Source: Eledone cirrhosa (Eukaryota). Taken from it: a stretch of 64,000 nt of DNA. Positions 1,652 to 49,542 of this stretch are shown here, in pieces. Within the stretch, counting starts at the first letter, position 1. Each line of letters opens with the position of its first letter. A program made the translations under genes and the position numbers. The notes beneath the pieces are model-generated. The model was given only the letters and a program-made list of their open reading frames with translations. It did no database searches and had not been told where the DNA came from. The stretch spans positions 52,018,001 through 52,082,000 of the forward strand of contig OZ024747.1 of the NCBI GenBank assembly GCA_964016885.1. The letters are read 5' to 3'.

Positions 1652-3311
1652 ATATATGTATTTATATGTATATACATATATATACATTCACACACCCACC
1701 AACACGCACACACGTTCACACACACACGTTCACACACACCTTCACACACGCGCACAGAGAGAGAGAGAGAGAGAGAGCTGTGAGTTCAAATCCAACTAAG
1801 AGGAACTTTATCTTTCACCCCATTCGAAATCGATAATGTAAAGTGCTAATCCAATCCATAGTTTGTAGTATGTGTTCCTTGAACTTCTGAGTTGAAATCT
1901 CCCTCCCACAGTAGCCTCCTTGGGTGGTAGACCGTGTAATATCTCACGTGGTTTAACACATCCACAAGGAGATAGGAACAGCACTACCATTAATTTTGAT
2001 AGGCAGATGTCTTGAAGGCATTGATCACAGAAACTATTTTCTAAATGGATAACAGCTATATAAAGATTTTATAAGTTAAATAAATATGTTGTAATGTTCC
2101 TGCGATCAATAAAAAAATTTATTAAACATGTCTGCCACGGAGAAGAGGGGTAGAAATATCCAAAACATTGAAGTGCATCGTGTGAGTTTTTGACTAGTCA
2201 CATGATTTGGCGTGGGTGAATGTGGACTATGTAGTAGAAAATGTAGGCTTAGTAATTTAAAAGTGGAAATTATTTTATTTGGGAGTAAAGTGCGCATAAT
2301 ATAAGGATGCTCAATGGCGCAGAATACACAAGAGTCGGGTAGCCATGTTGTATGAGAAATGATGTGAATTGCAACCAAACAGGAGAATTTATGAGAGAGA
2401 GGGAGAGAGAGAAGGAGAGAGAGAAGGAGAGAGAGACAGATATAGAGAGAGAGGCATCCGCATACACACACACACATACACACACATATACGCACATATG
2501 TATGTATACATATATATGAAAACAGGGAGAAAGAGACGATATATTTTTCTTCCTCATAATCGTCTCTTTCTCCCTGTTTTCATATATATATATATATATC
2601 CTAACTCGTGTGCCTCCTCTCCACATTTTATTATATATATATATATATATATATATATATATATATATATATATATATATATATATATATATATATATAT
2701 ATATATATATATATATACAATCATTGTTATGCACACGTTGCAGAGAGACGCCCAAATAAATAATATACATAACATAATTGTATTCTGTTTATTATCGTCT
2801 GTTATATTTCATTAATTCCCCCAACCTGCGCCACAAGGGGACTCGTATAAGACCCGGAAAATAGCAGATCCAGAATTATCCCATTAAACTTTATGGTTGT
2901 GTATGTTCTACGAAGCAGATAAGCAAATCGGGGAGGGAACCATCTTTGGATGTGGTCAAACACATCGTGTGTATACATGGTATTCAACTTATCAAAATTG
3001 ATGATATACATACACACATACACACTAACATGCACACAATGATTTATGTGTATTATTACATACATATATATATATATATATATATATATATATATATATA
3101 TATATGCGTGTGCGTGTGTGCGTGTGTGTGCGTATGTATATATATATTTATTTATTTAGGTTATATATATATATATATATATATATATATATATATGTAT
3201 CTCTCTCTCTCTCTCTCTCTCTCTCTATATATATATATATATATATATATATATATATATATATATATATAATATATTAATAAATGGACACTATATTTAT
3301 AAAACCATATT

Positions 3312-3377
3312 TATTTTATTATATATATTTCAAAGGCAACCAAGGTAAATTATGGTGCGCTTTCATCAGATAAAATA
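3312..3377 (-). ncRNA. Minimal type I hammerhead ribozyme (family A)
   Basis: Minus: TATTTTAT-CTGATGA-AAGCGCACC..GGTTGCCTTT-GAAA-TATATA-TA-ATAAAATA. 8-bp stem I, palindromic stem III. Confidence 0.75.
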
Positions 3378-4732
3378 CAGATTTGTTTTATAAATAAATA
3401 TTGACATACCCGGAAAAAAAGACAACCTTAACGGTTGGAGCCTCCTGGATAGTGGAGATAATATTTTATTGAGGGTAATACAAAGTTATGAGTGAGTATG
3501 CAAATGAGTGTCCGAAAAGTTGAAAAGATAACGGTTTATTTAAATTAAACTGTTGGAAGAAGAGGATATGTAAGGGCGAGAGAAGAAAAGGAAGGAGAAA
3601 GAGAGAAGAAGAAAGAAAGAACGATTATACATGGTGATAGTGAAGATAATCAAAGTGAATGAGGAAATAAATTTTAATGGAAGAATATACAGAACATCAA
3701 TATATCTAAGTGAAAGAAGAAATAAGATTAACGTGGAAGAATAATATTTAGAATGTAGGGTTTATTACGTTGTGATTATAATATTTATAATGATAAGTTG
3801 AAAATTAAATTAAAATAAAAATTAAAAATTAAAAATCAGAATTAAAGATTAAAATTTACTTTAATATTAAAAATTTAATTTAATATTAATATTAAAATTA
3901 AAAATTAAAAATCACTTCTAAAAAATCACTTCTAACTTCCTTTATACTTCCTTACTGTTTTTATAATCTAATTAAGTAGTTATTCCTTTGTAAACTCTCG
4001 TAAATGTTCATAAATTTGGAATTATTTGGATGTTTAAGTTTTGACTTACAACTATTAATAAATATAATTCTGCCAAACTTACATTAATCAAATAAACTAT
4101 ACTAGATTTTCTCCAATGTAAAATACTATACATTTATAATCCATAACATACACATCTAAACCAATATATTATTACTAATACATCTTAATATAATATAAAT
4201 AATTCTGTTTTAATTTTAATTTTTAATTTTAATATTAATATTAAATTATATTTTTAATATTAAAGTAAATTTTAATCTTTAATTCTGATTTTTAATTTTT
4301 AATTTTAATTTTTATTTAATTTTCAACTTAAATATAAATAATTATAATCACAACGTAATGAACCCTACATTCTAGATATTATTCTTCCACGTTAATCTTA
4401 TCACTTAGATATATTTACGTTCTGTATATTCTTCCATTAAAATTTATTTCCTCGTTCACTTTGATTATCTTCACTATCACTATGTATAATCGTTCTTTCT
4501 TCTTCTCTCTTTCTCCTTCCTTTTCTTCTCTCTCCCTTACATATCCTCTTCTTCCAACAGTTTAATTTAAATAAACCGTTATCTTTTCAACTTTTCGGAC
4601 ACTCATTTGCATACTCACTCATAACTTTGTATTACCCTCAATAAAATATTATCTTCACTATCCAGGAAGTTCCAACCGTTAAGGCTGTCTTTTTTTCCGG
4701 GTATGTCAATATTTATTTATAAAACAAATCTA

Positions 4733-4798
4733 TATTTTATCTGATGAAAGCGCACCGTAATTTGCCTTGGTTGCCCTTGAAATATATATAATAAAATA
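4733..4798 (+). ncRNA. Minimal type I hammerhead ribozyme (family A)
   Basis: TATTTTAT-CTGATGA-AAGCGCACC(loop)GGTTGCCCTT-GAAA-TATATA-TA-ATAAAATA. Predicted cleavage after 4790. Confidence 0.8.
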
Positions 4799-5170
4799 AA
4801 TATGGTTTTATAAATATAGTTTTCATTTATTAATATATTGTGTATTTACTTCACTAATTTGTTGAGTGCTTTATATCAGTTATAAAAAATTTTTAAGCTT
4901 GTTGAATCCCATCAAATTAAATATAACTTCTGCTTTTATGTATATATATATTTATATTTATATTAGTATGTATACGTACATACATATATGTGTACAGACG
5001 CACAGTAGTATGTATATATATATACATACATGCACACACATATATATATGTATGTATGGGTTACCGAACATTTATTATAATGTTCGGTTTGTTTGTAAAA
5101 AAACAGCCCGAATTACGCCGTACAGTGCTCGGCAACCATCGTCGCCCTTTTGTTCAACACTGACACAGGA

Positions 5171-46761: not shown

Positions 46762-47633
46762 TGTATGTATGTATGTATGTATGTATGTATGTATGTATGT
46801 ATGTATGTATGTATGTATGTATGTATGTATGTATGTATGTATGTATTTATGTATTTATAAGTGTATATACATGGGTGCATGTGTATGCATATGCCAGGGG
46901 ACATAGAAATAGTCGGGCTGGACACCCGATCGTGCGGTTAAACCACTAGGAGTGAAGGACCTCTAGCCTTTGTCAGGGCATTCTTCTAGAAGGCAACTCA
47001 GGAAACTGGGATAACTCCGATATAAAACCTGCGGCTCAGTAGTTACCGATGATGTTGATCTTTTCTTCTTTTCGGGTTATAGCTACTGTAGCTCAGAGAG
47101 TGGGATTGGCTCAGTGCACAGTCTTTCCTCACTTTAAAAAATATCTTTACGCACAGGCATTGCACGATAGAATTAATTACTAATTATTAATAATGGTATA
47201 TCGTGAAATGGCCATACTCGATAACGAGGGGGGAAGCCATCATCATGTCTGTATATATATGTATGTATGTATGTATGTATGTTCCTCTGGTTTTATAATT
47301 TTATAAAGTTTGCCAATAGAGAGAGGGTCGGTTTCTAACATAGATACAAGACTCTCTCATTGGAATTTAAACACATCAACTAAGTAGATATGTATGTATG
47401 TCTACATGCATGTGTGTGTGCAAGTGTGGATGTTATTGTATGTTTGAATGTGGATGTTTATGTATGTAAGTACGCATGTATGTCTATATATATATATGTG
47501 TGTGTGTGTGTGTGTGTGTGTGTGTGTGTGTGTGTGTGTGTGTGTGTGTGTGTATGTGTGTACATAAGCATGTAGGTAATCTCTCGTTCTCTCCCTCACG
47601 CATCTGTTGGTTTTCACTTCAATTTATTATAAA

Positions 47634-48269
47634 CTAGCAGTGGTACCCGGCGTTACACAGGATAATGTATTTTGGAACGCGGGCCGCCAACAGACCTAAT
47701 CATGGAAAAACTGCATGCCTGGACAATATGTAAAGAAAATAAACCGAATACTCTGATGGCTGGATAATCTCTAAGATTTTACTCGATGAAGTTGGAAAAA
47801 TGCAGGTTTTCACCTAATGCGAGGCCTAGGGAATCAAGAAAATGAATTTTTTTTATGTGCATAATATGCCTTGAAATTTCGGGAAAATAGGCTAGACGTA
47901 ACGCCTCAAAAAAGCCATAAAAAGCTGAAAAAAATGAAGTTTTTCACCTAATGCGGGCCCTAGGCCATAAAAAAGCTCGATTTTCTTTCCTCGCGGTATG
48001 AGGAAGAGACTGACTAATACATAGTTACAATTTCAAGGAAATCGGTCTGACGTAACGCCTCAAAAAACCCATAAAAGCTGAAAAAAACGCAGTTTTTCAC
48101 CTAATGTTAGGGGATCAAAAAGTTGAATTTTAAGTGCATAACACTCCCTGAAACATAAGTAATACACATGTAAAGTTTGAAAAATAATCGGTTGGATACT
48201 TCTCGAGTTTTAGGGATTCAAACTCACAGACACACACAGACAGACATCAGTCGGTTTTATATATATAGA
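47634..48269 (-). mobile_element. Non-autonomous Helitron (second copy)
   Basis: Reverse complement of 33629-34262. Homology extends ~80 bp further, to ~48349. Confidence 0.85.
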
Positions 48270-49327
48270 CTAGCAGAAAACTACCCGGTGGGCGGTTTTC
48301 TGCTAGCAAATCTAGTGTATATTTGTTGAGATTTGGATGAGAAATGTTTGATGATGGTGATATATATATGGCTAGGTTTGCATGCGTACGCGCGTTTATA
48401 TAAATGTATTTGTCTTTGTGTGACCGCGCGTGTGCGTATATACATATGTCTGTTCTTATGTGTGTATGTGTGAAAGTATGTGTGTGTATCTGTATGTAGG
48501 CCTGTGATTAGGTTATCGCTAAAAAAGTTTTTAAACCTTAAACGTGAAATGTATCCTCGGGGTCGATAAAATAAAGTACCAGTAATACATTGGGATAATT
48601 GCTGGCCTTGTGCCTAAAGTAGAAACAATTATTAATACCAGTCTGATGCGTAGTTTTCAGAAGTGAGTCTAATATATTTAAGGTCTTAAAGCTTATCTGT
48701 AAGACTTCTCTCTAAGCTGCTAGCAAGGATTAAAACACGGTTTGTACTTTAAACTTATTACCCAGTAAATACTGGCTTTAAAATCCTACATATGCGAGCT
48801 AATTAGCTTTCTTCAGGATTCGTCCAACATATCACGTGACTATAATGAAAGTTTGCTGGTGTTACACTAGTGATGGTTTTTTATGGTACCAATTTGATTG
48901 CTCTTGTGTGTGTGTGTGTGTGTGTGCGTGTGTGTGTGTGTGTGTGTGTGTGTGTTTCAGAGAAAAGAGTAAAATCTATGATATTTGTATAATTACCCTA
49001 GATTGGTCATCATCATGCTATAGTAAAATACACTGTATAACACTGTTATTCACTGTTATACTTGCTCTAAAACTACACAGTTATACACCTGCGCTAATAT
49101 ATTTAAAACTAATTCTATGCTAATTAATTTTGCTGTTTAACAACAACATTAATGTCTGCTATTTTTCAACGTTGAATAACAATAATTTTATGGAAAATAT
49201 TTATTCATTATATTTCATATCTTTTCTAAGATATATATATATATATATATAGTAATAATAATAAATTTGAAGACTAAAATCTGTTAATTTAATAAATATA
49301 TATATACACAATATATATATATATATA

Positions 49328-49542
49328 CACAATATATTAATAAATGGAAACTATATTTATAAAACCATATTTATTTTATTATATATATTTCAAGGACAAC
49401 CAAGGCAAATTATGGTGCGCTTTCATCAGATAAAATACAGATTTGTTTTATAAATAAATATTGACATACCCGGAAAAAAAGACAACCTTAACGTTTGGAG
49501 CTTCCTGGATAGCTATCCAGTAAGCTCCAACCGTTAAGTTTG
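49328..49542 (-). mobile_element. Family A pLTR fragment with short terminal fold-back; hammerhead at 49372-49437
   Basis: Homologous to 3272-3452. CTGGATAG|CTATCCAG inversion centre ~49512. Confidence 0.8.

What the first reader, a model, noticed from the sequence alone, without database searches (positions are those of the whole stretch)
3272..49542. All ribozyme-bearing fold-backs share one polarity, and two invert at the same site
Seen: in the seven fold-backs (3272-4934, 4960-5625, 6710-6920, 11092-11528, 20527-20987, 27655-27913, 49328-49542) the antisense copy always precedes the sense copy, so the arms join at their 5' sides. Family A copies at ~20801 and ~49512 both turn around right after CTGGA(T/G)AG. 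Family A 3' ends also coincide (..TAACTTCTGC-like then TA-rich sequence at 4934, 11092 and 20527). Established: Penelope-like elements often have an inverted 5' pLTR copy. Inference: a mechanistic signature (template fold-back or self-priming at a preferred site) rather than random palindromes.
Basis: partly seen in the sequence, partly recalled or inferred. Interest (0 to 1): 0.7.

Follow-up and report, generated by a model that had tools for sequence, protein, structure and literature searches.

The report
Twin-primed Penelope retrotransposon insertions
These mirror-image repeats are insertions of known Penelope-like jumping genes, but almost every one pairs a short end with a long end, which suggests the element likely copies its RNA from both sides of the DNA cut at once rather than folding one copy back on itself.

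Summary
All seven fold-backs are real and head-to-head; genome-wide, family A has 1291 head-to-head versus 29 tail-to-tail ribozyme pairs. They are terminal-repeat (pLTR) stubs of Penelope-like elements; family A continues into an RT plus GIY-YIG ORF with Hydra-clade motifs. The polarity and the one-sided tail are already published. In 16 of 43 the long arm is tail only, so the arms barely overlap and neither could be a copy of the other. This favours twin target-primed reverse transcription from two internal start sites over fold-back self-priming, which fits only short stubs such as 49513-49550. The shared turning point is a true hot spot (42 of 84 arms within 13 nt) at an initiator-like motif, likely the RNA's 5' end; no RNA data could test this. 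The scan reached a similar reading before on other DNA, including this genome. Known structure, new testable mechanism.

The parts
3272..3910 (-). Family A locus 1, antisense arm ending at the short (tail-less) 3' end next to (TA)n; hammerhead at 3312-3377
   Evidence: arms 93.8% identical
3911..4934 (+). Family A locus 1, sense arm: 3' UTR, pLTR, hammerhead 4733-4798, tail, long 3' end
4654..4659 (+). Initiator-like TTCACT; A4657 is +1 of the family A 5'-end hot spot (likely transcription start, untested); this arm reads through it
4841..4934 (+). Family A tail between the short and the long 3' end
4960..5283 (-). Family B (retrozyme-like, about 440-nt unit) antisense arm, short 3' end
5284..6051 (+). 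Family B sense arm, tandem units with hammerheads at 5292-5334 and 5741-5783, long 3' end
6651..6814 (-). Family C antisense arm with tail (6651-6709), long 3' end; mutated hammerhead core
6816..6920 (+). Family C sense arm, hammerhead 6823-6884, short 3' end
11092..11400 (-). Family A locus 2 (diverged subfamily), antisense arm, long 3' end, hammerhead 11222-11286; inner end approximate
11436..11528 (+). Family A locus 2, sense arm starting inside stem II (no core), short 3' end; a duplicated piece lies just before it
15282..15443 (-). Family E antisense body with hammerhead 15312-15382, short 3' end; 5' end at the family E hot spot
15444..15550 (+). Family E sense arm, almost tail only, long 3' end
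20527..20801 (-). Family A locus 3, antisense arm, long 3' end, hammerhead 20662-20727
20802..20987 (+). Family A locus 3, sense arm starting exactly at +1, hammerhead 20878-20943, short 3' end; arms 97.9% identical
27535..27743 (-). Family D antisense arm with two internal deletions and most of the tail; joined at its 3' side to a copy of another hammerhead family; left end approximate
27746..27916 (+). Family D sense arm starting at the family D hot spot, hammerhead 27744-27863, short 3' end
49328..49512 (-). Family A locus 4, antisense arm from +2 to the short 3' end, hammerhead 49372-49437
49513..49550 (+). Family A locus 4, 38-nt inverted stub of the arm's own 5' end (likely snap-back synthesis); no ribozyme, no long 3' end
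50594..50754 (-). Family E second copy, antisense body with hammerhead 50624-50694, short 3' end
50755..50856 (+). Family E second copy, tail-only sense arm, long 3' end

Best explanation
These loci are head-to-head insertions of Penelope-like element ends in (TA)n that pair one short and one long 3' end, and they were likely made by twin priming: the element's enzyme likely nicks both target strands and primes two cDNAs from two fixed internal sites on its RNA. Shown: head-to-head polarity, two fixed 3' ends about 90 nt apart, one of each per insertion, (TA)n on both sides, a 5'-end hot spot, and an RT plus GIY-YIG ORF behind the family A tail. Inferred: each nicked strand anneals to a short AT-rich patch at the short or the long site; the two cDNAs grow towards the RNA's 5' end and so towards each other; they are joined by end joining with short microhomology or filler. 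That forces both 3' ends outward, which is the polarity seen. A cDNA that reaches the RNA's 5' end stops at the initiator-like +1, giving the hot spot. The long-site copy often stops inside the tail, giving a plain inversion; when it runs further, the overlap looks like a fold-back.
For: Short/long pairing in 72 of 74 classifiable family A junctions, 2 short/short, 0 long/long; 16 further junctions unclassified. Four other families: 41 short/long, 3 long/long, 1 short/short (counted per insertion). Tail-only long arms in 16 of 43; the short arm reaches further 5' in 32 versus 5, p=7e-6. Short arms of 0.9-4 kb paired with tails under 70 nt (L056, L100, L102, L193, L265). No age difference between tail-only and overlapping classes, p=0.30, 15 versus 20. 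Read-through sequence at both ends is TA-like and could pair with a (TA)n primer. Hot spots in families A (42 of 84), E (13 of 26) and D (12 of 23) each fall on a BBCABW-like motif (consensus recalled); no strong hairpin lies just upstream of family A +1. In vitro, the anole PLE protein cuts and extends both strands and starts RT at two internal sites that bound the tail (PMC11167929). Twin priming is established for L1 (PMC2837659).
Against: 27 of 43 short/long junctions have overlapping arms, so both cDNAs must have copied the same RNA stretch; this needs strand displacement or a second RNA, neither shown. In roughly a third of the close pairs both arms end near +1, which a fold-back also explains. 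Among pairs new to the two-core set the asymmetry is not significant (13 versus 6, p=0.17). True snap-back stubs exist (L188). PMC11167929 saw no difference in start site between the strands in bulk and reports the start site as not homologous to the cut DNA. Family C shows no hot spot at the site tested (2 of 17). The family D count is biased because the query began at the hot spot. The G before +1 (41 G, 32 A, 27 T in the first 100 of 748, counted by hand) is mostly templated by the partner arm, so it does not prove a capped 5' end.
Confidence: 0.6

Rival explanations
1. One cDNA is primed at the long site, runs to the RNA's 5' end, folds back and copies itself; the endonuclease resolves the hairpin at the short site; later central deletions erode the palindrome into the asymmetric forms.
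For: Gives the polarity and the one-short-one-long rule directly. Symmetric junctions at +1 to +10 are common. Arms come from the same subfamily: arm-arm distance is below the family median in 42 of 49. Snap-back stubs exist. Craig et al. ascribe the tail to endonuclease resolution (PMC8557442).
Against: The short arm should be contained in the long arm, but it reaches further 5' in 32 versus 5. Kilobase short arms with tails under 70 nt would need repeated multi-kb deletions all ending in a 90-nt window. Tail-only copies are not older (p=0.30).
Confidence: 0.2
2. Dual priming: two RNA molecules, one per subunit, each primed on one target strand, with one subunit fixed on the short site and the other on the long site.
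For: Explains overlapping arms and both arms reaching +1 without strand displacement. Proposed for L1 (PMC2837659).
Against: Free use of two RNAs predicts short/short and long/long products, seen in 2 of 74. No pair with arms from two subfamilies among the 8 most divergent-looking pairs viewed. The pile-up of long arms inside the tail suggests a block by the second primer on the same RNA.
Confidence: 0.12
3. Self-priming on an antisense transcript, as proposed by Arkhipova et al. 2013.
For: Proposed for the head-to-head arrangement and junction palindromes (PMC3846280). Short self-complementary motifs lie at the family A and E hot spots.
Against: Also makes one arm a copy of the other, so it fails on tail-only and non-nested arms. 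Arms starting at +1 join partners at many unrelated positions. Sense RNA is an effective template in vitro.
Confidence: 0.06
4. Library or assembly fold-back artefact, or generic host palindrome formation unrelated to transposition.
For: Fold-back chimeras are a known long-read artefact (recalled). The window holds other small palindromes. The window's own junctions were not confirmed in reads.
Against: Arms differ (median 97.3% identity, 2 of 46 identical). A chimera would be symmetric, not short on one side and long on the other. Polarity is 1291 to 29. Opposite-strand joints of family A appear in raw Illumina reads of three other samples, for example 4699 to 4857-4861 and 4699 to 4731, in 0-20 reads per run.
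Confidence: 0.02

Closest known systems
Endonuclease-positive Penelope-like element insertions with an inverted 5'-truncated pLTR and a one-sided tail (Arkhipova et al. 2013, PMC3846280; Craig et al. 2021, PMC8557442 Fig. 2; Schostak et al. 2008, PMC2377424)
   Same: Head-to-head inverted copy at the 5' side, tail on only one of the inverted pLTRs, hammerhead in the pLTR, initiator-like TCACT, AT-rich microsatellite targets.
   Different: Tails here are about 55-150 nt, not 30-40. The tail is described there as optional; here it is on exactly one arm in 72 of 74 junctions. Tail-only and non-nested arms and a 5'-end hot spot are not in the passages read. The published proposal is antisense self-priming.
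Hydra clade of C-terminal EN+ PLEs (Craig et al. 2021, PMC8557442 section 11)
   Same: Single ORF (743 aa open in L265) with RW motif, DKT, CxCX5C linker, CxxC and CxH around the late E and N, canonical hammerhead, (TA)n target.
   Different: Unit about 4 kb because of a 1.5-kb 3' UTR, against under 3 kb; RWR instead of RWK; thousands of copies; no tree was built.
L1 twin priming and dual priming (Meyer et al. 2010, PMC2837659; original 2001 paper not seen)
   Same: Second target strand primes a second cDNA internally; two inverted fragments joined at their 5' sides with microhomology or filler.
   Different: In L1 it is a minority outcome with a variable internal site and non-overlapping fragments. 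Here it is the majority outcome, both sites are fixed, and the arms often overlap into palindromes.
Poseidon PAc in vitro system (Frangieh et al. 2024, PMC11167929)
   Same: Both strands cut and extended; two internal RT start sites bounding the tail; AT-rich targets.
   Different: Different clade; the main text read does not link the two start sites to the two ends of one insertion or to the inverted repeats.
Animal non-LTR retrozymes (bioRxiv 10.64898/2026.07.22.740005; Cervera and de la Pena 2014, PMC4209133)
   Same: Family B is a non-coding tandem unit with a type I hammerhead that has a short palindromic helix III.
   Different: Here it also shows the PLE short/long end rule (10 of 11), a sign of PLE-driven insertion.

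Membership tests
EN+ Penelope-like elements (family A) | Single ORF with RT and C-terminal GIY-YIG endonuclease | tested here: met
   743-aa ORF behind the tail in L265; 24 homologues at 28-40% identity, one with RVT_1 at E=1e-5. Motifs read by eye; Pfam gave no RT or GIY-YIG hit on the ORF itself.
EN+ Penelope-like elements (family A) | pLTR-ORF-pLTR partial tandem | tested here: met
   L265: hammerhead 2245, ORF 2482-4710, second pLTR 6034-6200
EN+ Penelope-like elements (family A) | Type I hammerhead in the pLTR | tested here: met
   Descriptor match; cleavage not tested
EN+ Penelope-like elements (family A) | Inverted 5'-truncated copy and one-sided tail | tested here: met
EN+ Penelope-like elements (family A) | Target-site duplication | not testable with these tools
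   Both flanks are (TA)n, so a duplication cannot be read
EN+ Penelope-like elements (families B-E) | Own RT plus endonuclease ORF | not tested
   Only ends, hammerheads and architecture were examined; B looks non-coding
Hydra clade | RWK-like motif and DKT in place of DKG | tested here: met
   RWR and DKT in L265 and L107
Hydra clade | CxCX5C linker; CxxC and CxH around the late E and N; no CCHH | tested here: met
   CNCRNKSNC, CSLC and CKH present; one cysteine inside the GIY-YIG core; read by eye
Hydra clade | (TA)n targets and canonical hammerhead | tested here: met
Hydra clade | Generally shorter than 3 kb | tested here: not met
   About 4 kb in L265; given as a tendency in the paper
Hydra clade | Placement in the RT tree | not tested
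   No named Hydra sequences were at hand, so the clade is a likely assignment only
L1-type twin priming | Two inverted fragments of one element joined 5' to 5', both 3' ends at the target | tested here: met
L1-type twin priming | Fragments do not overlap | tested here: not met
   Holds for 16 of 43; the rest overlap
L1-type twin priming | Both cDNAs RNA-templated from one molecule | not testable with these tools
   Needs biochemistry; same subfamily in both arms fits several models

The most novel reading that the evidence does not exclude
Penelope-like elements integrate by programmed twin priming: both target strands are primed at two fixed RNA sites, so the inverted pLTR, the one-sided tail and the 5' hot spot are all outputs of the normal reaction, and genomic copies map both RT start sites and the transcription start for each family.
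Probability: 0.5. Interest if true: 0.7.

Novelty: new member of a known kind. Interest (0 to 1): 0.5.

Why it matters
Craig et al. 2021 state that the tandem and inverted structures of Penelope-like elements come from still undefined steps of their cycle, and the standing proposal is antisense self-priming. Counting ends across five families gives a rule that the fold-back models fail in a large share of copies, and it ties the two RT start sites found in vitro in 2024 to the two ends of one insertion. It can be tested in the existing in vitro system. It also explains how this class seeds an animal genome with over a thousand palindromes from one family.

Tried and rejected
Rfam scan of the window: the 150 best of 354 rows were microsatellite-driven miRNA-type matches, with no hammerhead among them; a descriptor was used instead. 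The repeat finder and an unmasked self-BLAST were swamped by microsatellites. Sequencing-run search: no RNA holder listed, so the transcription start could not be tested. The window's own junctions were not confirmed in reads; only family-level joints were seen. Homodimer prediction of residues 3-490 of the ORF: no verdict. Pfam on six ORF pieces and the full ORF: no RT or GIY-YIG hit. One search had a spacing that missed the main subfamily and was replaced. Cap-derived G before +1: suggestive only. A DPE-like GGTTG at +27 to +31 is also the 3' strand of a small hairpin, so it is not claimed. Two-subfamily arms as proof of two RNAs: none among 8 pairs viewed. The exact 23-mer for family D matched only the window. 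L076 and L077, first taken for full-length elements, hold no element ORF. Rows dropped before the counts: L089 and L149 (duplicates of L088 and L148), L053 (TA noise) and L038 (three-piece locus); the last two had been scored short/short, so keeping them gives 72 of 76.
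Full report
Setting. The window is G000:C7:52018001-52082000 in a 3.0-Gb animal assembly. The only named homologue of the element's protein is from Argonauta hians, which points to an octopod host; this is an inference.

Observation. After masking microsatellites, self-comparison finds all seven fold-backs. A type I hammerhead descriptor gives 12 cores with stem I of 6 bp or more, against 0-1 in 20 shuffles. In every locus the antisense arm comes first. The loci at 20527 and 49328 turn at the same site (20801/20802 and 49512/49513), and the long 3' ends at 4934, 11092 and 20527 coincide. 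Corrections: the right arm at 49513-49550 is a 38-nt stub; the right arm at 11436 lacks the core; the loci at 4960, 6710 and 27655 extend to about 6051, 6651 and 27535.

What it is. Family A has 8354 exact copies of a 22-nt core. Some copies read past the long end into an ORF. L265 shows the whole unit: inverted tail, pLTR with hammerhead, 743-aa ORF, long 3' UTR, second pLTR. [quoted passage not shown] Its RW, DKT, CxCX5C, CxxC and CxH motifs and its (TA)n target match the Hydra clade as defined in PMC8557442 section 11, though it is longer than typical and no tree was built. Families B-E are other hammerhead repeats (3121, 260 and 3284 exact cores for B, C and E). B is a tandem, retrozyme-like unit. 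Their ORFs were not sought.

Polarity. Head-to-head core pairs within 10-500 nt number 1291, tail-to-tail 29. This is far beyond chance but already known. PMC3846280 calls head-to-head the most frequent arrangement and places the tail on one inverted pLTR; PMC8557442 draws the same.

The end rule. Family A arms stop at one of two fixed 3' ends, at window 4840 (short) or 4934 (long), each followed by (TA)n. I mapped arms in two sets: 86 seed groups from the first 100 places (a few were lost when identical 120-mers were merged) and the first 50 pairs. Of 107 junction records, 90 were unique after dropping four named rows. Of these, 72 were short/long, 2 short/short, 0 long/long and 16 unclassified because one arm reaches neither end. 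28 of the 86 seed groups had no junction within 450 nt; several have a partner further off. In families E, C, B and D, counted per insertion from 108 loci, there were 13, 8, 10 and 10 short/long, with 3 long/long and 1 short/short; partners more than 850 nt away, including all three long/long, were not verified as one insertion. In the window, six of the seven loci and both family E loci obey the rule; the 49328 locus has no long arm.

Against fold-back as the main route. In the unbiased set 16 of 43 long arms are tail only, and the short arm reaches further 5' in 32 versus 5 cases, with 5 ties. Short arms of 0.9-4 kb carry tails under 70 nt (L056, L100, L102, L193, L265). Tail-only copies are no more diverged than overlapping ones (p=0.30), so erosion over time gets no support. 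On the other side: 27 of 43 junctions overlap, about a third of close pairs are symmetric near +1, the asymmetry among pairs new to the two-core set is not significant (13 versus 6), and 20-60-nt snap-back stubs exist. Arms share a subfamily (42 of 49 closer than the family median), which fits one RNA or a fold-back equally. Junctions show microhomology in 28, blunt joins in 6 and filler in 38 of 72.

The hot spot. Of 84 arms ending between -59 and +84, 42 end at -3 to +10, where 9% are expected; only 3 end between -59 and -5. 748 arms genome-wide have a non-C base directly before +1. Families E and D have hot spots too (13 of 26, 12 of 23); C does not at the site tested (2 of 17), and D is biased by its query. 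All three sites read as BBCABW, a recalled initiator consensus. PMC3846280 notes an Inr-like TCACT in a pLTR, and PMC2377424 shows an internal promoter in Penelope. No strong structure lies just upstream of family A +1. The RNA 5' end is the simplest reading, but no RNA run was listed, and the G excess before +1 is not decisive.

Artefact. Arms differ (median 97.3%, 2 of 46 identical) and are asymmetric in a fixed way. Raw RAD reads of three other samples show opposite-strand joints in family A, in small numbers. The window's own junctions were not checked in reads.

Mechanism. Twin target-primed reverse transcription from the two fixed sites (0.6) accounts for the polarity, the end rule, the tail-only class and the hot spot. 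The anole protein cuts and extends both strands and starts at two sites bounding the tail (PMC11167929), and L1 shows twin priming (PMC2837659). How overlapping arms arise is unexplained. Rivals: fold-back with resolution and erosion (0.2), dual priming on two RNAs (0.12), antisense self-priming (0.06), artefact (0.02).

Novelty and sources. Six searches listed no paper that applies twin priming to these elements; the two papers were seen as listings only. Read: PMC11167929 parts 1-2 of 4; PMC8557442 passages and section 11; passages of PMC3846280, PMC2377424, PMC4209133, PMC2837659 and bioRxiv 2024.12.14.628481; bioRxiv 2026.07.22.740005 part 1 of 5. Not seen: Arkhipova 2006, Evgen'ev and Arkhipova 2005, the 2001 twin-priming paper, and all supplements (for example Fig. 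S2 of PMC11167929), any of which may anticipate the end rule. Earlier notes of this scan, looked up after my reading was set, reach a similar twin-priming view in this and other genomes; they are not independent evidence. Verdict: known structure, new families, and a quantified, testable mechanistic inference; interest 0.5.

Noticed in passing
window 30622-30934 (-) and 34536-34848 (+): 99% identical inverted pair 3.6 kb apart, with a minimal hammerhead-like core at 34694 on the + copy, flanked by (TG)n/(CA)n; same head-to-head polarity; the family recurs in 11 fetched loci.
   Followed up: partly
window 27408-27487 (-): A type I hammerhead of a further family with a long helix III; its copy (about 27290-27535) is joined directly to the tail of the family D arm, possibly by a template jump; related sequence in 5 fetched loci.
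   Followed up: partly
window 15282-15550 and 50594-50856: Two family E insertions with nearly the same junction: body from the hot spot to the short end plus an inverted tail.
   Followed up: yes
L181 2549-2883, L183 2301-2945, L110 8273-8413: Long copies with L1-like inversions whose second piece ends inside the ORF, close to where the first piece starts, so internal priming away from the fixed sites also occurs. In L181 and L183 the piece begins about 12 nt after the predicted ribozyme cut.
   Followed up: partly
L188 922-1087: A 165-nt inverted copy of the arm's own 5' end deep in the ORF, a clear snap-back.
   Followed up: partly
window 1251-1431, 1467-1657 and about 15 further places: Abundant about 180-nt repeat that looks like a tRNA-derived SINE ending in (TA)n (reading by eye); two copies sit head-to-head at 1245-1657 with a TA spacer.
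   Followed up: no
window 2501-2598, 15116-15218, 27942-27983, 57903-57938: Small palindromes without a hammerhead; the first lies between TA runs and may be a tail-only PLE stub; the second recurs in 17 fetched loci.
   Followed up: partly
window 21180-22865 and 60424-64000: Tandem arrays of a 43-bp unit (39 copies) and an 89-bp GT-rich unit running off the window end.
   Followed up: no
window 33542-34263 and 47633-48349: 730-bp repeat in inverted orientation, 88% identical, 13 kb apart.
   Followed up: no
families A and E: Both carry CACTATCC upstream of the hammerhead, but it holds the hot spot in A and lies about 19 nt downstream of it in E; unexplained.
   Followed up: partly
L108 6469-7590: A second, diverged PLE ORF with the same linker motif and a long N-rich insert.
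   Followed up: no
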